Source: a virus (taxonomy: Duplodnaviria; Caudoviricetes). Taken from it: 64,000 nt of DNA. The position numbers and the translations under genes were made by a program. The stretch is taken from the IMG/VR virus record IMGVR_UViG_3300017909_003066, positions 45,043-109,042 of that record. One strand, given 5' to 3'. Shown one piece after another: positions 6,472 to 61,162 of this stretch (its first letter is position 1; each line of letters opens with the position of its first letter). The notes beneath the pieces are model-generated. The model was not told where the DNA came from. It saw nothing but the letters and a program-made list of their open reading frames with translations, and ran no database searches.

Positions 6472-8511
6472 TTACTTACTGGTTGCGACGTAGACTCCGT
6501 TCCATGTTTCATTTGTAATATTTTGTAAAGCCATTTCATTACATCTTCCAATCATAGTCTCATAATATTTTTTATTTTGCTGTGGTCCATTTTTTGCTAG
6601 TTTTTCTGCTTTGTCTATTGCTTTAGTCCACTCTGCTTTTCTATAATATTCTAAAAACAATTCGTGTGCCCTGTAATAGTTTTCCTTTTGTTCTTCTAAC
6701 ATTATAGTGAAAATTCTTGCTGGTTCTGTTTTACCTTTTACTGCAATCAAATCTAATTCTACGTACTTGAATAAATCATCTTTACTTGACTCACCTATTA
6801 GTAATTGTTGCCCATACTCTTTGGACTGTCCTTCAAGTCTTGCGGCAAGATTGACAGCATCTCCAAGCACTGAATAATCAAAACGTTGATCTGATCCCAT
6901 ATTACCGACGACAACATCGCCAGTGTTAATACCAATACCAATATTAATAGGAAGTAGTCCCTCACTCTCCAACTCATTGTTTAACTCCTTTAGTCCTTTT
7001 AACATATCAATTGCTGTTTGTGTTGCTAGTTTCTTTTGCTCAGGAACATCTAAAGGTGCGTTCCAAAAGGCCATTAATGCATCTCCAATATATTTGTCTA
7101 TTGTTCCTTGATTAGTCATAACAATATTTGTCATAGGAGTCATATAGCGATTAATTAATTTTGTTAATCCTTGTGGATTAGTTTTATACTGTTCTGAAAT
7201 CGGAGTAAAACCTCTTATGTCCGAAAACAGTATAGTAAGTTCTTTAGTTTCGCCTCCCAATTTAAGTAAATCTGGATTCTTCTGTAATTTTTTAACCATT
7301 GCAGGTGCAAGGTAATGTTCAAACTGTTTTTTAATTTGTTGTTTTAATTGGAACTCTCTAACAAAGCGATTGAATACTGCATGGAATCCAACTATGGTAG
7401 ATACTACTACAATCCAACTCCAATCCCATAACTGTAAATGCCTTGTAAACGTAAAATAAGCGCCGTACACGGTGGTTGAATAAACTGCTAATATAACTGC
7501 TCCAACTACCCAGTAAGGTGCACGTACGGCGGTTACAATAAGCAATAAACCTATGATTATAGACGTTATATACTCTAAGAATGTAGCATAATCATAACGT
7601 ACTATATTATCTCCATTTACAATAGTTTGGATAGCAGTTGCTGGTAAAATATGCCGAGAAACTTCTCCATTTGGTGTTGCAATAATACTACCTAAACCTT
7701 CAGCAGTTGTTCCAATTATTACTATTTTTCCTGCAAGTGGAGAATAATCTTCCTCTGCCAAACTGATTGATTCAAATTGTTTATTCCACCTAATCCAAAT
7801 TCTTCCATTAGCATCAGTTTGAATAGTTTGATAAGCAGGTACTCGCATAGCAATAATACCGCCTTCTCCTGCTTTTACTTGATAACTTGGATCTCCTACT
7901 GCAACTCTAATGGTTTCTATAGCAATGCTAGGATATACTTCTTCACCTATTTTCATCAACAATGGTAGGCGTCTTGTTACACCATCTATTTCAGGTGCAG
8001 TGTTTATTACTCCAACTCCGTCAGCATTTTGTCCTAGGATTTCTATTGGCCCTAACATACCAGGCCACTCAAATAACCACGGCATTGGATCACCTATTTT
8101 AGCAACACCTCTTGGCACTGCATTTTTGTTTACTCCTTGTGAAGTTCCAACCTGTGCAATGATAATACCGTTGCCGGAAAGTTTTTGTGCTAGTTCTAAA
8201 TCACCACCTAGCCTATCTGGTTCAGAAAACAATACTGGAAGAACAATTACTCCAACGCCTGTTTCTCTTAATTTTTGTATAACATCTGCAAGTACATCAC
8301 GTTTCCAAGGCCATTGCCCATACTTTTCAATAGCACGTTCATCTATTTCTAATATTGCAATATCTTGTGATAATACTGGTGTGTCATACTGTTGTATAAC
8401 ATCAAAGGATTTAAGTCGTAGTAATTGCTTTACATAAGGGTCGGATAACCCTATAAAAGATATGACTGCAAGGGTCAGAATAGCAGATACCCAATGTGTT
8501 AACCATTTCAT
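6472..8511 (-). CDS. CHASE2-domain class III adenylate cyclase
   Basis: CHASE2 (IDERAIEKYGQWPWKR, DGVTRRLPL), 3 TM helices, cyclase motifs FSDIRGFT, DKYIGDA, FDYSVLGDAVNLAARLEG. Confidence 0.92.
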   Translation of the reverse strand: MKWLTHWVSAILTLAVISFIGLSDPYVKQLLRLKSFDVIQQYDTPVLSQDIAILEIDERAIEKYGQWPWKRDVLADVIQKLRETGVGVIVLPVLFSEPDRLGGDLELAQKLSGNGIIIAQVGTSQGVNKNAVPRGVAKIGDPMPWLFEWPGMLGPIEILGQNADGVGVINTAPEIDGVTRRLPLLMKIGEEVYPSIAIETIRVAVGDPSYQVKAGEGGIIAMRVPAYQTIQTDANGRIWIRWNKQFESISLAEEDYSPLAGKIVIIGTTAEGLGSIIATPNGEVSRHILPATAIQTIVNGDNIVRYDYATFLEYITSIIIGLLLIVTAVRAPYWVVGAVILAVYSTTVYGAYFTFTRHLQLWDWSWIVVVSTIVGFHAVFNRFVREFQLKQQIKKQFEHYLAPAMVKKLQKNPDLLKLGGETKELTILFSDIRGFTPISEQYKTNPQGLTKLINRYMTPMTNIVMTNQGTIDKYIGDALMAFWNAPLDVPEQKKLATQTAIDMLKGLKELNNELESEGLLPINIGIGINTGDVVVGNMGSDQRFDYSVLGDAVNLAARLEGQSKEYGQQLLIGESSKDDLFKYVELDLIAVKGKTEPARIFTIMLEEQKENYYRAHELFLEYYRKAEWTKAIDKAEKLAKNGPQQNKKYYETMIGRCNEMALQNITNETWNGVYVATSK

Positions 8512-26430: not shown

Positions 26431-26697
26431 TTAGTATTTGTTTTCTTGTTCTTTCATTTCACGTTGTTGTCTACGAATTGCCGCTTTTTTAGCCTTACGT
26501 TTCTTATCGCTAGGTTTTTCATAGTACTGACGATCTCTAAATTCTTGAACAATACCTGCCTCGTTAACTTTACGTTTGAACTTTCTTAAAGCCTTCATAA
26601 AGTCTTGTGGAGAGTTTCCTCTCACTACGACAGCACATCCTGCCTCATTAGGATCTCTTACTTGCGCCATTGTTCTTACCTTAACGTTTTTTGCCAT
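26431..26697 (-). CDS. rpsU: Ribosomal protein bS21
   Basis: ALRKFKRKV...GI..E.R.RQYYEKPS.KKR. Confidence 0.9.
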   Translation of the reverse strand: MAKNVKVRTMAQVRDPNEAGCAVVVRGNSPQDFMKALRKFKRKVNEAGIVQEFRDRQYYEKPSDKKRKAKKAAIRRQQREMKEQENKY

Positions 26698-27937
26698 TTG
26701 TCCTTGTATTCTTATATACTAACAATGGTTTTTCACCGTTAGTAATTGTTTCTTTTTGTACTGTTATAGTTTCTAATCCATTTTCAGCAAGTTCTTCTGC
26801 TTCGAACTGATACTCTAAAAGTACATCTTCAATTATGCTCTTAAGTCCTCTAGCACCTGTTTTAAGTTTCTTTGCCTTTTTTGCAATGGCCCTTAAACTT
26901 TCGTCTGTAAACTCAAGATTAACCTTGTCTAAGTCAAACAAATATTTGTATTGTTTAACTAAACTGTTCTTAGGCTCTTTTATAATACTACAAAGTTGCT
27001 CTTCTGTCAACTCTTTTACTGAAGTAATTAAACCAAATCGACCAATAAATTCTGGTATAAATCCATATTTTACTAGATCTTCTGGTAATACATTTGATAA
27101 GTCTGGTTCTTGATTTGGATCAGCAATACTTTGGCCAAAACCCATTCCGCCCGATTTGGTTCTTTCGCCTATTACTTTATCTAAACCAACAAATGCTCCC
27201 CCTACAACAAACAATATGTTTTGTGTATCAACATCTACCATTTCTGCACCTGGATGTTTTCTTTTAGAACCTTGAGCACTAACTCTAACTGTTGTACCTT
27301 CAATTATTTTAAGTAAACCTTGTTGTACTCCCTCTCCTGATACATCTCTTGTTATTGAAACATTTTGTGATTTCTTTGTGATTTTATCTATTTCGTCAAT
27401 AAAAATAATACCGCGTTCTGCTAATTTTACATCTCCGTTTGCATTAGTCAACAACCTGTTTATAATGCTTTCTACATCATCACCTACATAACCTGCTTCT
27501 GTTAATGTAGTAGCATCACAAATTGCAAATGGTACATTTAGATAATCTGAAACTGTTTGAGCAATTAAAGTTTTACCTGAACCAGTTGGACCCATAACCA
27601 TTACATTAGTTTTATCTAGTTTGATGTCTTCTGACGGATTGTTTAATTTTTTATAGTGTTGTGCAACTGCAACTGACATAGCAATTTTGGCTCTATCTTG
27701 TCCTATTACATGTTGGTCCAAAAACATTTTTATATCTTTTGGATTAAGTTTTTCTTTTCCTACGCCTGCTTCTTCTTTAAGTGTTTTTACTTTTTCGTTA
27801 ACTAAAATACCATTACATAATTCCACGCATTCATTACATATTGCACTATCATCACCTACAATAAGTTTTGCAACTTCTGATTTGTCCTTGCCACAAAAAT
27901 GACATTTGTAACCTTTGTCTTTAATATTATTGCTCAT
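26681..27937 (-). CDS. clpX: Clp protease ATP-binding subunit ClpX
   Basis: Zn finger CHFCGK...ICNECV, GPTGSGKT, IDEIDKI, RDVSGEGVQQGLLK, RKHP. Confidence 0.96.
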   Translation of the reverse strand: MSNNIKDKGYKCHFCGKDKSEVAKLIVGDDSAICNECVELCNGILVNEKVKTLKEEAGVGKEKLNPKDIKMFLDQHVIGQDRAKIAMSVAVAQHYKKLNNPSEDIKLDKTNVMVMGPTGSGKTLIAQTVSDYLNVPFAICDATTLTEAGYVGDDVESIINRLLTNANGDVKLAERGIIFIDEIDKITKKSQNVSITRDVSGEGVQQGLLKIIEGTTVRVSAQGSKRKHPGAEMVDVDTQNILFVVGGAFVGLDKVIGERTKSGGMGFGQSIADPNQEPDLSNVLPEDLVKYGFIPEFIGRFGLITSVKELTEEQLCSIIKEPKNSLVKQYKYLFDLDKVNLEFTDESLRAIAKKAKKLKTGARGLKSIIEDVLLEYQFEAEELAENGLETITVQKETITNGEKPLLVYKNTRTNGKKR

Positions 27938-56384: not shown

Positions 56385-57449
56385 TTAAGCCAATTTTGCC
56401 GCTATTTCTCTTTCTGCTTCTGTAGCCATCTCTTCGTCCCATTTGTCTAAATGCTTTTTCATAAATGCATTAAACACTGGAGGTATTAGTGCTAACGCAA
56501 AGAGTGTAAAATAGCCTACACCTGTGTTTGGTGCACCTACTTCATCTAATTCCCAGAAGTGTGTTTCACCTCTGTCATGATGATCAGCCTGACGACCTAT
56601 CTCAATAAAGAACCATGAAGTGAATAGTGTTGAGTTATCCCAAGAATGTCTATAGTCTATTGGTTCGCTCTTAACACGTACCAAACCATAGTGTTCTAGA
56701 TAGTTAAGTGCTTCTAACTCAAAGTTTGATATTACCCAAACCAGAGCCAAACACGCAACTCCTAACCAACCACCTGCAAAGAAGAACAATGCAAGTGAAG
56801 GAACACTCATCATATAACCTCTTATCCATCTGTTACTAATAGATATAAAAGGTTTCTGTAAACGTTTCAATCTGTTCTTTTCCATTTCAAACAAGAACTT
56901 GGATTGACCCAAGTGTGATTTAACATAGTGTGAATAGATATCACGTCCTCTAGGTGCGGTTGCAGGATCATCTTCACTTGCTAATTCCAAATGATGATTG
57001 TACACATGAGCATAACAGAAATGTGCAGAACCTGATAACGCCATCATCCAACGACTGATTACAAATGCAACGCCTTTGGTGTGCGATAGTTCATGCCCAT
57101 AGATTATACCTATGCCTGCAAATATACCTGTTGATAATACTGCACCTAACAGTTCAACACCTGCCATACCATTATAGATCTGATATGCTAGTGCAATCTG
57201 AAGTGCAACAAAGACTGGCAACATCAAATACATTACTGTATTCTGCAACCAGGGGATGCCTAAGGTTTCACCATTCTCATCAACTGCTCCACGTGTTTGA
57301 ACATTGATAAGGGTGTCAAGTATAATGCCTATTCCCAATAAGCCTACACCTGTCCATGCCCATATTCCACCTGCTAACACTCCAGCGAGTGTAACAAGTA
57401 TCAATAACGGTGCAATGAAGTACCTTATATTTACGAGAAGTTTTTTCAT
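56385..57449 (-). CDS. alkB: Alkane 1-monooxygenase (membrane diiron)
   Basis: HELSH, HVYNHH, DPATA.RG, NYLEHYGL, DHH His boxes; TM helices. Confidence 0.88.
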   Translation of the reverse strand: MKKLLVNIRYFIAPLLILVTLAGVLAGGIWAWTGVGLLGIGIILDTLINVQTRGAVDENGETLGIPWLQNTVMYLMLPVFVALQIALAYQIYNGMAGVELLGAVLSTGIFAGIGIIYGHELSHTKGVAFVISRWMMALSGSAHFCYAHVYNHHLELASEDDPATAPRGRDIYSHYVKSHLGQSKFLFEMEKNRLKRLQKPFISISNRWIRGYMMSVPSLALFFFAGGWLGVACLALVWVISNFELEALNYLEHYGLVRVKSEPIDYRHSWDNSTLFTSWFFIEIGRQADHHDRGETHFWELDEVGAPNTGVGYFTLFALALIPPVFNAFMKKHLDKWDEEMATEAEREIAAKLA

Positions 57450-57496
57450 TGTGTTTCTCCCGGCTTTCGCCTAAAATTAAACAACAATGTGTATAT

Positions 57497-57525
57497 ACTA
57501 TAACACTAATTTAGAGTAGTGTCAA
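57497..57525 (-). promoter_or_regulatory. Sigma70-like promoter of alkB
   Basis: TTGACA-N17-TATAGT. Confidence 0.6.
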
Positions 57526-57610
57526 GTTATATAACAATATTTAATGTGTTCAAAACAAAAAGGCCGAGTTATAGAATATAGGTAGATACTAATATACCAT
57601 TGTCAACATT

Positions 57611-57688
57611 TTTGCATGGGTGAAATGCAAATTTAACAACGGAAAATACTTGACTTTTTGTTAGAGATATATTACTATATTATAAATA
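57611..57688 (+). promoter_or_regulatory. LysR-type inverted repeat plus sigma70 and late promoter of the microprotein operon
   Basis: TTTGCAT-N7-ATGCAAA; TTGACT-N17-TACTAT; TATAAATA. Confidence 0.55.
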
Positions 57689-57689
57689 A

Positions 57690-57862
57690 GGTTGTTGCAG
57701 TGCAAAGTGCCTATGTTCCAGTAGGACCTGCCAACTACAACACACATACAGACACTGGGAGAGACCAGGGCATAACTACATGCCTTACAAGCAGTTGACG
57801 GTCACCAAAGGTGATTGCACCGCCGGGGAAGTTCCGGGGTATTGCTTTCCTTAAGCATCCAA
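57690..57862 (+). ncRNA. Candidate structured leader or sRNA
   Basis: GC-rich, ORF-free, at least 6 hairpins. Confidence 0.55.
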
Positions 57863-57878
57863 AACATAGGAGAAAATA

Positions 57879-58097
57879 ATGACACACTTTTTAAGTGGCC
57901 TTATGTCTTGGATGAATCGCGACGCTGAATCTGGTCGCGAGGAACTCTTGACTTGGGCCAAAACCGAGTATAAAAATGATTGGCGTTATGCTTATCATTA
58001 TATGCTTAACAATCACGGTAAGGCACCATCTTACTCAACTATGAATAGAGTAACACGTTACTCTTTTTCACCTTCAAATACAAAGGAGGTGGCATAA
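57879..58097 (+). CDS. Small hypothetical protein
   Basis: AGGAG RBS; WAKTEYKNDWRYAY. Confidence 0.7.
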   Translation: MTHFLSGLMSWMNRDAESGREELLTWAKTEYKNDWRYAYHYMLNNHGKAPSYSTMNRVTRYSFSPSNTKEVA

Positions 58098-58271
58098 ATG
58101 GAACGTCTATTCGCATTCATTAAAAAACTTTTCACATATAGATCTCCTGAAGAGATTTATCTGTCTAACGCTATTGACCATTTTGATTTGGAACAACGCA
58201 TCAGGAAACTTGATCGCGGCCAGGTCCACACTGGTCCATTTGGCTACAAAGAGAAGTATTATCGATATTAA
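58098..58271 (+). CDS. DUF3563-like small protein
   Basis: Read by hand; EEIYLSNAIDHFDLEQRIRKLDR; GGAGG RBS. Confidence 0.65.
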   Translation: MERLFAFIKKLFTYRSPEEIYLSNAIDHFDLEQRIRKLDRGQVHTGPFGYKEKYYRY

Positions 58272-58298
58272 CACACACATGATCAGAGGAGAAAAAAC

Positions 58299-58550
58299 AT
58301 GTTAGTATGGCAAAGAATAAAAAACTTTTGTTTAATGGCTGGTTATGCTCGAGCGGCATCCGAACTCGCTAGGGAAGGGTATATCGATGAAGCCAAAAAG
58401 TTAATGTTAGAAAAGGTCGCTTTATCTACAAAAAAGGGTAAAGCAATTCATAGACTAGAACATATCAAAAACGCCAAATCATCTTATGAGCCTGGCGATC
58501 ATTATATGAAAGGTAAGTCTGTAGCATTTTGGAAAGGAAAAGCGGCATGA
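58299..58550 (+). CDS. Small hypothetical protein
   Basis: GAGGAG RBS; GYARAASELAREGY..EAKKLM. Confidence 0.7.
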   Translation: MLVWQRIKNFCLMAGYARAASELAREGYIDEAKKLMLEKVALSTKKGKAIHRLEHIKNAKSSYEPGDHYMKGKSVAFWKGKAA

Positions 58551-58648
58551 TGAAATTTGTTGTTCCGTTTTTGTTTATCACAGGAATGTTAGGATTACTT
58601 TTTGGAGTAATGATGCTATCAATGATGAGATATGGAGGGATATTTTAA
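58547..58648 (+). CDS. 33 aa single-TM microprotein
   Basis: ATGA overlap; hydrophobic. Confidence 0.5.
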   Translation: MMKFVVPFLFITGMLGLLFGVMMLSMMRYGGIF

Positions 58649-58704
58649 TGTGGCCTTACACTGATGAAGAGAACGATTTTATAAGTTCAAAACCTAAGAA
58701 GTAA
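58648..58704 (+). CDS. 18 aa microprotein MWPYTDEENDF...
   Basis: TAATG overlap with GGAGG RBS. Confidence 0.4.
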   Translation: MWPYTDEENDFISSKPKK

Positions 58705-58716
58705 AAAATTTGTTAG

Positions 58717-58750
58717 TGGCGTAGCCGCCCGCCAAGATGACTACGCCACA
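58717..58750. terminator. GC-rich hairpin between convergent units
   Basis: GTGGCGTAG...CTACGCCAC. Confidence 0.6.
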
Positions 58751-58783
58751 ACTTTATTAAAGTTGTCCTATGTCTATTTCAGA

Positions 58784-59017
58784 TTATTTTTTTGTGAAAA
58801 TATGATATAGAACCCATATAGCAACTAATCCAACAAGTCCTTGTGCAGAGAATCCTGCAATAATTCCTTGTATGTTGCCTATGATATTAATGTTTGGCCA
58901 AAACGGAATGTTTTGCCCATTAAAAAGAACTTCTAGTACTACACCTAAAGCAATTAAACTTATACCTGCTTCAGTTAGAGCACTTGCCCATCCTTTTACC
59001 TTATTAAGAATGTCCAT
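58784..59017 (-). CDS. Small two-TM membrane protein
   Basis: GGAGG RBS; two hydrophobic helices. Confidence 0.75.
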   Translation of the reverse strand: MDILNKVKGWASALTEAGISLIALGVVLEVLFNGQNIPFWPNINIIGNIQGIIAGFSAQGLVGLVAIWVLYHIFTKK

Positions 59018-59206
59018 AATAGACCTCCTTTCTTTTACTAAACTGTCTTATTGACAGTAAGTTTATTTAGGTAGCAATTTACCAAAGATAAACTACCATA
59101 ATTGCTATTTGGTTATCAAACATTGAATTTTATATAGTTGACAATACTAAATAAGAATGTTATAGTAATATAACGTAAACACACATACACACAAAGGAGA
59201 AAAAGT

Positions 59207-59518
59207 ATGAACAAGACGTTTAAAGAAGGTATCGAAAAAGGTGCCGAACAACTAGCACAATCAGTGCGTGAAACACTTCCAAAAGTACAATTCAACAAGA
59301 ATGGCTATGAAATACGTACTCAAGTATTAGACATGGCTAAACATTTCACAGAGTTTGAATATTCAAGCAAATGGAATGGCTGGGAAATCACATCTAAACG
59401 TGATCCAGAGTCTGGAGAAATTGTAAACAAAGTTGGTATGCCAGAGATTCCTGGCGTAGATGATGTTTTAGAAACTGCTGAAAAGTTTTATAACTTCATC
59501 AACAATACAAAGAAATAA
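59207..59518 (+). CDS. Conserved phage hypothetical protein
   Basis: KNGYEIR..VL.MAK...P..DDVL..AEKFYNFI; sigma70 promoter and terminator. Confidence 0.75.
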   Translation: MNKTFKEGIEKGAEQLAQSVRETLPKVQFNKNGYEIRTQVLDMAKHFTEFEYSSKWNGWEITSKRDPESGEIVNKVGMPEIPGVDDVLETAEKFYNFINNTKK

Positions 59519-60943: not shown

Positions 60944-61162
60944 CTATCTATATCTAAAGGTAATTCTACCTTTGCTTAGATCGTAAGGTGTCATTTCAAC
61001 CTTAACTTTATCACCCATCAAAACTCTAATTTTGTTTTGTTTCATTTTGCCATTAGCATAGGCAATGATCTCATGGCCACTTTCTAATTTGACCTTGTAC
61101 ATCTGATTGGGTAGGATATCTAAGCAGGTACCTTCAAACTCCATTAAGTCTGCTTTACTCAA
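60944..61162 (-). CDS. infA: Translation initiation factor IF-1
   Basis: EG...[36 protein letters not shown]. Confidence 0.95.

What the first reader, a model, noticed from the sequence alone, without database searches (positions are those of the whole stretch)
57611..58750. LysR-type box, ~170-nt multi-hairpin leader and five microproteins, divergent from alkB
Seen: TTTGCAT-N7-ATGCAAA about 20 nt upstream of a -35 box; both sigma70 and late promoters; a leader with hairpins (GTTGCAG/CTGCCAAC enclosing CCTA/TAGG, CTGG/CCAG, GGCAT/ATGCC, TCACC/GGTGA, CCGG/CCGG, TGCTT/AAGCA); then ORFs of 72, 57, 83, 33 and 18 aa, mostly translationally coupled, and a closing GC hairpin. Recalled, needs checking: alphaproteobacterial LsrB/VtlR LysR regulators control sRNAs and small proteins through GCAT-containing boxes. 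Inference: a host-regulator-responsive sRNA/microprotein module, or an unknown riboswitch.
Basis: partly seen in the sequence, partly recalled or inferred. Interest (0 to 1): 0.7.

Follow-up and report, generated by a model that had tools for sequence, protein, structure and literature searches.

The report
Phage microprotein operon with folded leader
An uncultured giant marine phage carries a compact gene unit in which a LysR-type regulator site and two promoters drive a conserved, many-hairpin leader RNA absent from RNA catalogues, followed by five genuine tiny protein genes; the unit recurs in hundreds of ocean viral contigs and resembles the LsrB/VtlR small-protein circuits of the likely alphaproteobacterial hosts.

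Summary

**Leader RNA.** Window 57739-57863 belongs to a structured RNA family with no Rfam 15 match. In 97 distinct sequences, 96.8% of predicted pairs hold, against 31-44% in slid controls, and 17 pairs carry compensatory changes. All 80 viral loci fetched by the ORF1 protein alone carry this RNA 16-32 nt upstream of that gene.

**ORFs.** All five belong to conserved peptide families, ORF4 only weakly. ORF2 is Pfam DUF3563. Related operons often add DUF1127 genes.

**Palindrome.** On its own it is not beyond chance. Relatives, however, carry a phased array, TGC-N7-GCA-N9-TGC, in 54-90 of 114 upstream regions, against about 0-1 in controls. Its register matches the LsrB/VtlR box of PabcR1. 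The window matches GCAT-N3-TG-N3-T exactly, one helical turn further upstream.

**Reading.** This is a dual-promoter (host LysR-type regulator plus phage late) microprotein cassette with a cis-acting hairpin-array leader that probably binds protein. Regulator binding and leader function are untested.

This scan has already found the same RNA-plus-microprotein module on other genomes. I found no published description.

The parts
57611..57631 (.). Palindrome TTTGCAT-N7-ATGCAAA. It holds two half-sites (GCAT, ATGC) of the conserved upstream operator. GCATGGGTGAAAT (57614-57626, + strand) matches the LsrB/VtlR box GCAT-N3-TG-N3-T.
   Evidence: Sequence. Unique in the contig. The half-site array is conserved and phased in relatives. 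Box taken from PMC7486931 and PMC8844928.
57650..57678 (+). Sigma70-like promoter TTGACT-17-TACTAT
   Evidence: Consensus scan, 9 of 12 positions. Many relatives have comparable -35/-10 elements 13 nt downstream of the box.
57681..57688 (+). T4-type late promoter TATAAATA
   Evidence: Sequence. An xxTAAATA motif lies 75-177 nt upstream of the 3' core of the RNA motif (most at 133-165 nt) in 96 of 102 distinct instances.
57694..57735 (+). P0, the first leader hairpin. It is clade-specific and variable among relatives.
   Evidence: Present in part in the MFE fold. Not aligned outside close relatives. L137 keeps it with compensating changes.
57739..57863 (+). Conserved structured leader RNA: CA-rich 5' tract, P1 57755-57768 (GAGAGA hexaloop), P2 57769-57784, P3 57799-57817, P4 57819-57840, P5 57843-57857 (UGCUU-UCCUU-AAGCA).
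   Evidence: CM R1 scores 133 bits, E 1e-31. Covariation. No Rfam match. Nucleotide identity to relatives is 81-92%, against about 65% for the ORFs.
57868..57872 (+). Shine-Dalgarno AGGAG of ORF1, in an A/C-rich tract that is unpaired in the fold
   Evidence: The start codon lies 20-32 nt after the P5 core in nearly all instances.
57879..58097 (+). ORF1, 72 aa, of the 'WAKTEY' small-protein family (motif WAKTEYxxDWxYAY). It is the constant partner of the leader.
   Evidence: Alignment A2. 179 clusters at 50% identity. First gene in 90 of 100 operons. Predicted helical, pLDDT 71.
58098..58271 (+). ORF2, 57 aa, Pfam DUF3563. Its start codon directly follows the ORF1 stop.
   Evidence: PF12086, 32.2 bits against a cut-off of 26.9, E 1e-7. 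Present in 49 of 100 operons.
58299..58550 (+). ORF3, 83 aa. An Arg/Ala-rich N-terminal module (GYARAASELAREGY..EAKKLML) is joined to a C-terminal module (EPGDHYMKGKSVAFWKGKAA).
   Evidence: tblastn hits in 229 loci. The two modules occur separately, and the C-terminal one is also found fused to DUF1127, in relatives. The nearest Atlas clusters (scores 0.77-0.81, below the tool's 0.9 reliability line) are viral only.
58547..58648 (+). ORF4, 33 aa, a predicted single-pass membrane peptide with an ATGA overlap onto ORF3
   Evidence: Only weak homologues, in 3 loci, sharing the C-terminal M(R/K)YGG(I/M)F.
58648..58704 (+). ORF5, 18 aa, MWPYTDEENDFISSKPKK, with a TAATG overlap onto ORF4
   Evidence: The peptide motif MWPYT[DE]EE.D[FWY] is found in 153 loci as 55 distinct sequences.
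58716..58749 (.). 9-bp GC hairpin between the cassette and the convergent 77-aa gene; a likely bidirectional terminator
   Evidence: Sequence. Partly conserved in relatives. The T-run lies on the minus-strand side.

Best explanation
This is one self-contained expression module of an uncultured large marine T4-type phage that probably infects an alphaproteobacterium.

(1) Promoter region. A sigma70-type promoter sits next to an upstream array of GCAT/ATGC half-sites. I infer that a host LysR-type activator of the LsrB/VtlR kind binds there. A TATAAATA late promoter overlaps it, so the unit can be transcribed both early, under host control, and late.

(2) Leader. Both transcripts begin with a leader of about 185 nt. 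Its conserved 125-nt part folds into five tandem hairpins. Several of these display a repeated NAWAGA hexaloop. The last hairpin, which is nearly invariant, ends about 10 nt before the ORF1 ribosome-binding site.

(3) Proposed function. I propose that the leader acts in cis as a protein-binding platform. The most likely binder is a small protein of the cassette itself, with ORF1 the best candidate because it is the constant partner; a host RNA-binding factor is the alternative. Binding would set the processing, stability or translation of the operon mRNA. This parallels DUF1127 protein CcaF1, which binds the hairpin RNAs co-transcribed with its own gene.

(4) Products. The operon encodes five microproteins: WAKTEY family, DUF3563, an Arg-rich ORF3, a membrane peptide and an 18-aa peptide. 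They probably interfere with host RNA metabolism or stress physiology.

Shown: the conserved structure, the strict linkage to ORF1, the conserved operator array and the coding status of the ORFs (weak for ORF4). Inferred: who binds the DNA and the RNA, and what the proteins do.
For: **RNA structure**
- P1-P3 covary in 38 sequences.
- In 97 distinct sequences, 96.8% of pair cells are standard pairs, against 31-44% when partners are slid. 17 pairs show changes on both sides. The covariation score is 0.365, against 0.02-0.05 for slid controls, and 0 of 500 shuffles reach it.
- Nucleotide identity of the leader to relatives (81-92%) exceeds that of the ORFs (about 65%).

**Cis linkage**
- 80 of 80 loci fetched by the ORF1 protein alone carry the RNA directly upstream.
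- The start codon lies 20-32 nt after the P5 core in nearly all instances.
- There is one copy in this contig.

**Repeated loops**
- 95 of 97 leaders have at least one hairpin closing a NAWAGA hexaloop, and 38 have 2-4.
- A[AUG]AGAC is 11-fold over shuffles.
- The number of hairpins varies among members.

**Operator**
- TGC-N7-GCA occurs in 90 of 114 upstream regions, GCA-N9-TGC in 69 of 114 and the tripartite form in 54 of 114. Shuffles and coding controls give about 0-2.
- The central GCA sits at -59, -69, -80 or -49 from TAAATA, a 10-nt phasing.
- The strict VtlR box occurs on either strand in 26 of 114 regions, against 1.2 expected.
- The window matches the box exactly.
- In the -59 class the box lies about -62 to -50 from the inferred sigma70 start. 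PabcR1 has it at -61 to -49 (PMC8844928).
- Relatives contain GCATGGCTG, identical to the reverse complement of the first nine bases of the Brucella VtlR motif (CAATGCAGCCATGCA, PMC12595884).

**Proteins**
- DUF3563.
- DUF1127, E 1e-9 to 4e-12, in partner operons.

**Precedent**
- VtlR mainly activates DUF1127 genes and an sRNA.
- CcaF1 binds its co-transcribed RNA; in S. meliloti the CcsR RNAs lie in the 5' UTR of the DUF1127 gene (PMC8034643).
Against: - No binding data exist for either the DNA site or the RNA.
- In the window the box lies one helical turn further upstream (-71 to -59) than in PabcR1. The window also lacks the first half-site that relatives have.
- Most relatives carry GCAT-N3-AG-N3-T rather than TG on the forward strand.
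- The host is unidentified, so an LsrB orthologue is assumed.
- The window's own operon has no DUF1127 gene.
- P5 never varies within its stem, so its pairing rests on sequence conservation alone.
- The ORF1 ribosome-binding site is predicted to be open. There is therefore no obvious on/off switch.
- The loop motif could serve RNA-RNA contacts or a small ligand instead of a protein.
Confidence: 0.55

Rival explanations
1. The leader is a precursor of one or more trans-acting small RNAs. These would be cut from the 5' UTR, as CcsR/NfeR RNAs are from DUF1127 transcripts, and the hexaloops would be seeds for host or phage mRNAs.
For: The hairpins are arranged like beads on a string, with a repeated loop motif and a variable number of units. 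There is a CIN1 precedent, including the 5'-UTR arrangement in S. meliloti. An A/U-rich single-stranded tract lies between P5 and the SD and could be an RNase E site.
Against: There is no terminator or conserved processing signal after P5. The RNA was not found without a downstream small-protein gene, apart from copies cut by a contig end and one doubtful pattern hit, L128. Its spacing to the start codon is fixed. No target complementarity was found. The cuckoo CCUCCUCCC motif is absent, and no ar14 match appeared in the Rfam scan at E up to 10.
Confidence: 0.18
2. The leader is a riboswitch. It would work either through a small P4-P5 aptamer or through loop-loop dimerisation of like hairpins, as in guanidine-II. 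It would sense a metabolite and control ORF1 translation, or act by attenuation at the P4 hairpin with its U-rich tail.
For: Conserved loops and linkers sit among covarying stems. The position directly upstream of an SD fits. P4 followed by UAUUGCUUUCCUU is flagged as terminator-like. The P5 loop region CUUUCCU could pair with AGGAGA.
Against: P1 and P3 are missing or duplicated in members, and there is no multi-helix junction. A P5-loop variant, AACCAYA, loses complementarity to the SD without any compensating change. The downstream genes are not metabolic. The P4 stem is short and its U-tract is poor.
Confidence: 0.12
3. The leader is only a passive stabiliser or translation enhancer, giving 5' structure against RNases plus an open A/C-rich standby site. 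It would have no specific binding partner.
For: The RBS is predicted to be open. The operon is a late, presumably highly expressed one. A CA-rich unstructured tract is present.
Against: Near-invariance of about 25 nt (GGGGUAUUGCUUUCCUYAAGCAUCC) and of loop sequences across lineages whose proteins are only 40-60% identical is far more than stability needs. The 5'-most hairpin, P0, which would do the protecting, is the least conserved part.
Confidence: 0.12
4. The upstream half-site array is bound by some other regulator, not by a host LsrB/VtlR-type protein. It could be phage-encoded, another host LysR-type regulator, or a PhaR-like factor as suggested for related cassettes elsewhere in this scan.
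For: Most relatives deviate from the strict VtlR box, with AG in place of TG. The window's register is shifted by 10 nt. The host is unknown. 69% of the phage genome is unseen. Earlier notes proposed PhaR-type sites at DUF3563 cassettes.
Against: The dyad geometry (4-bp arms, N7 spacer, T-N11-A) and the -65 position are LysR-type hallmarks. PhaR sites use TGC-N3-GCA spacing (from my own knowledge), which is not seen here. The 9-nt identity with the Brucella VtlR motif and the DUF1127 content of the regulon fit LsrB/VtlR. No LysR HTH is encoded on the contig.
Confidence: 0.3

Closest known systems
LsrB/VtlR-activated promoters of Alphaproteobacteria (PabcR1; Brucella and Agrobacterium DUF1127 genes such as BAB1_0914 and atu1667)
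   Same: The box GCAT-N3-TG-N3-T lies upstream of a sigma70-type promoter. The window matches it exactly, and relatives carry it in the PabcR1 register, about -62 to -50. The regulon content also fits: small proteins (DUF1127 in relatives) plus a structured RNA.
   Different: The module is in a phage and overlaps a T4-type late promoter. In the window the box is one helical turn further upstream. Most relatives have AG instead of TG on the forward strand, and a three-half-site array. The window's operon has DUF3563 and phage-specific families but no DUF1127. Binding is untested.
CIN1 loci: cuckoo/CcsR/NfeR RNAs (Rfam ar14) co-transcribed with the DUF1127 RNA-binding protein CcaF1 (PMC8034643)
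   Same: An array of similar hairpins with a repeated loop motif is co-transcribed with small Arg-rich proteins. In S. meliloti the RNAs sit in the 5' UTR. The encoded protein binds its own transcript.
   Different: The loops here are NAWAGA, not CCUCCUCCC anti-SD motifs. There is no ar14 match. The constant protein partner is the WAKTEY family, not DUF1127. Processing into sRNAs has not been shown.
Hairpin-plus-small-basic-protein leader systems of phages (lambda nut boxB with N protein)
   Same: Short GC stems with purine-rich, A-rich loops lie just downstream of a phage promoter, and small Arg-rich proteins are encoded nearby.
   Different: This is an analogy from my own knowledge only. There is no boxA, the loops are hexaloops rather than GNRA-like pentaloops, no N homologue is present, and there is no downstream terminator to read through apart from the operon's own end.
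Pfam DUF3563 (PF12086)
   Same: ORF2 scores above the curated cut-off. It has the same length class and the same YL..(A/S).D..DLE.R motif.
   Different: The family has no known function. A full-text search found no paper that mentions it.

Membership tests
LsrB/VtlR-dependent promoter (PabcR1 type) | Box GCAT-N3-TG-N3-T | tested here: met
   GCATGGGTGAAAT at 57614-57626. The strict box occurs on either strand in 26 of 114 related upstream regions, against 1.2 in shuffles.
LsrB/VtlR-dependent promoter (PabcR1 type) | Box at about -61 to -49 from the transcription start, upstream of a sigma70 -35/-10 | tested here: inconclusive
   The window has the box at about -71 to -59 from the inferred sigma70 start, 10 nt further out. 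The commonest class of relatives has it at about -62 to -50. All starts are inferred, not mapped.
LsrB/VtlR-dependent promoter (PabcR1 type) | Bound and activated by LsrB/VtlR; the host encodes the regulator | not testable with these tools
   The host is unknown. No LysR HTH is found on the contig.
Generic LysR-type regulator site | 15-bp interrupted dyad containing T-N11-A, centred near -65 | tested here: inconclusive
   Relatives have ATGC-N7-GCAT (which contains T-N11-A) in 90 of 114 regions, at the right position. The window keeps only the adjoining dyad GCAT-N7-ATGC (C-N11-G).
Cuckoo/CcsR (Rfam ar14) RNAs of CIN1 loci | Hairpin loops carrying CCUCCUCCC; match to the Rfam model | tested here: not met
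   The motif is absent from the leader. No ar14 hit appears even at E up to 10.
Cuckoo/CcsR (Rfam ar14) RNAs of CIN1 loci | Adjacent to, and co-transcribed with, a DUF1127 gene | tested here: inconclusive
   DUF1127 ORFs occur in 29 of 100 related operons. There is none in this window or contig.
Riboswitch | Invariant aptamer architecture shared by all members, plus an expression platform with alternative pairing | tested here: not met
   P1 and P3 are lost or duplicated among members, and only P4-P5 are universal. No covarying alternative pairing with the SD was found. Ligand binding cannot be tested here.
Any Rfam 15 family | Score at or above the gathering threshold | tested here: not met
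   Nothing is found in 57400-58900, even at E up to 10, apart from chance hits to snoRNA and ROSE_3 models below threshold.
T4-type late promoter | TATAAATA at -10 with no -35 requirement | tested here: met
   Present at 57681-57688. It is conserved in 96 of 102 instances at a narrow range of distances. Dependence on a gp55-type sigma factor was not tested.
Pfam DUF3563 (ORF2) | Score above the curated cut-off | tested here: met
   32.2 bits against 26.9, E 1.1e-7.
PhaR/PhbF operator | TGC-N3-GCA type dyad (from my own knowledge) | tested here: not met
   The half-sites here are spaced N7 and N9. No N3 dyad lies in 57560-57650.

The most novel reading that the evidence does not exclude
The leader and the WAKTEY protein form a new phage ribonucleoprotein switch. 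The hexaloop hairpins would be the binding sites of a previously unknown small RNA-binding protein family. The whole cassette would be wired to the host's LsrB/VtlR redox- and carbon-sensing regulator. Giant marine phages would thereby read host physiology and use microproteins to reprogram host RNA turnover.
Probability: 0.25. Interest if true: 0.8.

Novelty: new variant of a known kind. Interest (0 to 1): 0.66.

Why it matters
**New, widespread RNA family.** The family is tied to a cassette of microproteins that standard annotation often misses.

**Link to a bacterial circuit.** The module connects phage biology to the LsrB/VtlR-DUF1127-sRNA circuit, which is important but poorly understood and has so far been studied in Rhizobiales pathogens and symbionts. 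Phages of marine Alphaproteobacteria may therefore borrow a host redox or carbon regulator to time a special gene set.

**Clues to protein function.** The cassette could help assign functions to DUF3563, DUF1127 and two phage-only small-protein families.

**A defined experimental target.** A 125-nt RNA with repeated loops, a fixed protein partner and a clear operator is well suited to binding studies.

Tried and rejected
- **Rfam 15.** No family matched at gathering thresholds across the whole window, or at E up to 10 on 57400-58900.
- **Isolated phages (INPHARED).** blastn of 57400-59100 and tblastn of ORF1 found no match. The module is known only from uncultured contigs.
- **Bacterial genomes.** The motif pattern hit only 5 contigs, all in metagenome-assembled genomes from unrelated phyla (Neomarinimicrobiota twice, Flavobacteriales, Peptococcaceae, Actinomycetes). 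These are probably mis-binned viral DNA.
- **My first reading that the palindrome is not conserved** (from BLAST). I dropped it after aligning upstream regions on the late promoter.
- **Remote homology among WAKTEY, DUF3563 and DUF1127.** hhalign probabilities are 0.2-9%, with only a similar N-terminal amphipathic stretch. I rejected it.
- **SD sequestration by the P5 loop, and a P1-loop/P5-loop kissing contact.** P5-loop variants carry no compensating changes elsewhere. Neither is supported.
- **A link between leader type and operon content.** None is clear.
- **A coding reading of the leader.** The 24-aa ORF at 57780-57854 starts inside the covarying P2 stem and is not conserved.
- **CA-rich tracts as a general pre-SD signal.** Only 7 of 47 sites precede an SD plus a start codon.
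- **ESM Atlas.** Nothing usable for ORF1. For ORF3 the nearest clusters are viral only, at scores of 0.77-0.81, below the tool's 0.9 reliability line.
- **ORF1 structure model.** A helical hairpin of moderate confidence. I did not take it to a fold search because small helical models give meaningless matches.
- **Literature.** No paper mentions DUF3563.
Full report
**Context.**
- The window is the 3' 64 kb of a 109-kb IMG/VR viral contig that CheckV rates 31% complete. GC content is 35%.
- It encodes six tRNAs and a permuted alpha-type tmRNA.
- It carries class I ribonucleotide reductase, a ClpX-like ATPase and a CHASE2-cyclase.
- Genes are preceded by T4-type TATAAATA late promoters.
- This is a large, uncultured marine T4-type phage, most likely of an alphaproteobacterial host. 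The host assignment is an inference from the tmRNA type.

**Observation.**
- Palindrome TTTGCAT-N7-ATGCAAA at 57611-57631.
- Sigma70-like promoter TTGACT-17-TACTAT at 57650-57678.
- Late promoter TATAAATA at 57681-57688.
- Six hairpins between 57694 and 57857.
- ORFs of 72, 57, 83, 33 and 18 aa at 57879-58097, 58098-58271, 58299-58550, 58547-58648 and 58648-58704. Their junctions are TAA|ATG, a 27-nt gap with its own SD, ATGA and TAATG.
- A 9-bp GC hairpin at 58716-58749.
- The divergent gene is an AlkB-like FA_desaturase with its own near-consensus promoter at 57525-57497.

None of this is remarkable in a single sequence.
- The leader's fold energy has z = -1.15.
- Perfect 7+7 palindromes are frequent in the contig: 99, against about 52 in shuffles.
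- The VtlR pattern is not enriched in the window: 8 matches, 10.9 expected.

The case therefore rests on comparison with relatives.

**The leader is a conserved structured RNA.**
- Loci fetched through the AlkB-like protein and through ORF3 showed that window 57742-57876 is 81-92% identical at the nucleotide level in relatives. The ORFs are only about 65% identical, and the promoter region barely aligns. The alignment showed compensatory changes by eye.
- RNAalifold on 38 sequences with the window's architecture predicts five hairpins, with double changes in P1, P2 and P3.
- A covariance model, R1, was built from that alignment. It finds one copy in the window's contig, at 133 bits.
- R1 also finds a copy directly upstream of the gene in 80 of 80 loci fetched by the ORF1 protein family alone. 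That set was not chosen by RNA sequence.
- On the model-based alignment of 97 distinct sequences:
  - 96.8% of pair cells are standard pairs, against 31-44% when partners are slid.
  - 17 of 30 pairs have changes on both sides.
  - The covariation score is 0.365, against 0.02-0.05 for slid controls, and 0 of 500 shuffles reach it.
  - This alignment is fitted to the model and so leans towards its structure. The MAFFT-based result agrees.
- P4 covaries in the wider set (CCGAG/CUCGG, CCCUG/CAGGG, CCUAG/CUAGG).
- The P5 stem never varies. Its loop is UCCUY, or AACCAYA in one clade.
- Rfam 15 has no matching family. Isolated phages lack the module. Bacterial genomes gave only five hits, in metagenome-assembled genomes of unrelated phyla.

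**Anatomy of the family.** The usual order is:
1. Late promoter.
2. A variable first hairpin, P0.
3. A CA-rich tract ending in AGACAC.
4. P1, with loop GGA(A/U/G)AGA.
5. P2, with a variable loop.
6. The linker UUACAAGNGAUUGAC.
7. Zero to three P3-type hairpins, with loop CCAAAGG or (C/A)AAAGA.
8. P4.
9. GGGGUAUUGCUUUCCUYAAGCAUCC, which contains P5.
10. An A/C-rich linker of 10-20 nt, then the SD and the start codon.

- Some members lack P1 or P3, some duplicate P3, and a few keep only P4-P5.
- 95 of 97 leaders have at least one hairpin of 4 bp or more closing a NAWAGA hexaloop, and 38 have two to four. A[AUG]AGAC is 11-fold over shuffles.
- This modular layout with a repeated loop points to an array of binding sites rather than a single folded pocket.

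**The ORFs are genes.**
- ORF1 defines a family with the motif WAKTEYxxDWxYAY. It comprises 179 clusters at 50% identity among 1.8 billion representatives. It is the first gene in 90 of 100 distinct operons.
- ORF2 is DUF3563 and is present in 49 of 100 operons.
- The N-terminal module of ORF3 (…A(G/R)xARAA…EAKxLM) is in 60 of 100 operons, often in several copies. Its C-terminal module (DHYMKGKSVAxWKGKA) occurs separately or fused to DUF1127 in relatives.
- The ORF5 peptide MWPYT[DE]EE.D[FWY] is found in 153 loci.
- ORF4 has only weak membrane-peptide relatives.
- 29 of 100 related operons contain DUF1127 genes, confirmed by Pfam at E 1e-9 to 4e-12. In a few loci the RNA directly precedes a DUF1127 or DUF3563 gene instead of ORF1.
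- Profile comparisons show no homology among the WAKTEY, DUF3563 and DUF1127 families.
- The ORF1 model is a helical hairpin of moderate confidence.

**The palindrome belongs to a conserved operator.**
- BLAST had suggested no conservation. I then aligned 114 distinct upstream regions on the late promoter.
- That alignment shows a recurrent element of the form ATGC-N7-GCAT-N7-(A/T)TGC. A typical example is atgcaaaaataGCATGACAGCCTTtac.

| Pattern | Upstream regions (of 114) | Shuffles / coding controls |
|---|---|---|
| TGC-N7-GCA | 90 | about 0-2 |
| GCA-N9-TGC | 69 | about 0-2 |
| Tripartite form | 54 | about 0 |

- The central GCA lies at -59 (37 cases), -69 (16, including the window), -80 or -49 from TAAATA. 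These steps equal one helical turn.
- ATGC-N7-GCAT is a 15-bp dyad containing T-N11-A. Counted from the inferred sigma70 start, its centre lies near -65. That is the classical layout of a LysR-type regulator site, as I know it from BenM/CatM and OxyR.
- The published LsrB/VtlR box is GCAT-N3-TG-N3-T (PMC7486931). In S. meliloti PabcR1 it lies between -61 and -49 (PMC8844928).
- The window matches the box exactly (GCATGGGTGAAAT, 57614-57626), at about -71 to -59.
- The -59 class of relatives has GCAT at about -62 to -50. Most of them carry AG instead of TG on the forward strand.
- 26 of 114 regions match the strict box on one strand, against 1.2 expected.
- Many contain GCATGGCTG, the reverse complement of the first nine bases of the Brucella VtlR motif CAATGCAGCCATGCA (PMC12595884).
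- In Brucella, VtlR chiefly activates three DUF1127 genes and one sRNA.
- The contig encodes no LysR HTH, so a host factor is the simpler reading. However, 69% of the phage genome is unseen.

**Mechanism.**

*Shown:*
- A conserved operator array.
- Two overlapping promoter types.
- A conserved folded leader that was always followed by a small-protein gene wherever its downstream sequence was present and it was recognised by the covariance model, at fixed spacing.
- A conserved microprotein operon.

*Inferred:*
- A host LsrB/VtlR-type activator drives the sigma70 promoter, and the phage late machinery drives TATAAATA.
- The leader acts in cis.
- Its repeated hexaloop hairpins bind a protein. 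ORF1 is the best candidate because it is the only constant partner.
- The closest working model is the CIN1 locus. There, the DUF1127 protein CcaF1 binds the hairpin RNAs co-transcribed with its own gene and promotes their RNase E processing. In S. meliloti those RNAs lie in the 5' UTR (PMC8034643).
- Membership of that RNA family is excluded. The cuckoo motif is absent and there is no ar14 match.

*Rivals:* the sRNA-precursor, riboswitch or attenuator, and passive-stabiliser readings remain possible. They are weighed in the rival explanations.

**Earlier notes of this scan.**
- Other windows of other genomes were already reported to hold the same leader-plus-microprotein module.
- Phage promoters with LsrB/VtlR boxes were also reported.
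- I treated these as leads. The structure, linkage, operator statistics and family assignments above were all computed here.
- The pointer to CIN1 came from those notes, and I checked it in the paper.

**Verdict.**
- The RNA family and its wiring are uncatalogued. In kind, they are a phage variant of known alphaproteobacterial regulator-RNA-small-protein circuits.
- What binds the operator and the leader is the open question.

Noticed in passing
window 58784-59017 (-): A 77-aa predicted membrane protein, convergent on the cassette, is syntenic and about 80-86% identical in 104 related loci. It is more conserved than the cassette proteins and shares the GC hairpin as its terminator.
   Followed up: partly
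window 59138-59518 (+): A near-consensus sigma70 promoter, TTGACA-17-TATAGT with TG, plus a CA-rich leader, drives a 103-aa ORF. The C-terminus of that ORF hits Pfam G1RFP (gene 1 ring-forming protein) just at the cut-off (E 8e-5). Homologues follow the cassette in about a dozen relatives.
   Followed up: no
related loci, e.g. L157, L124 (before TATAAATA) and L033, L142 (after it): An inverted repeat, TAGGGCAG-N5-CTGTACTAT, recurs in two positions. In some loci it overlaps the -10 region just upstream of the late promoter. In others it forms the first leader hairpin just downstream. The window lacks it.
   Followed up: no
related loci, e.g. L181, L183, L141, L316, L159: Some leaders replace the CA-rich 5' tract with another module, GAGCGACCUCAGCUCAGAAAAAAUGAGUGGCAC. 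Its stem covaries (CCUCA/UGAGG, CACCG/UGGGUG, CUUCA/UGAAG) and its A-rich loop is conserved.
   Followed up: no
window 57497-57525 (-): The AlkB-like gene has its own strong sigma70 promoter, TTGACA-17-TATAGT (11 of 12, with TG). It lies back to back with the cassette promoter, about 90 nt from the palindrome. AlkB and the cassette are adjacent only in relatives whose AlkB is at least 84% identical.
   Followed up: partly
window 6472-8511 (-), 26681-27937 (-), 60944-61162 (-): The phage encodes a CHASE2-adenylate/guanylate cyclase, a ClpX-like ATPase and a translation initiation factor IF-1 homologue. It also encodes the permuted tmRNA and six tRNAs.
   Followed up: no
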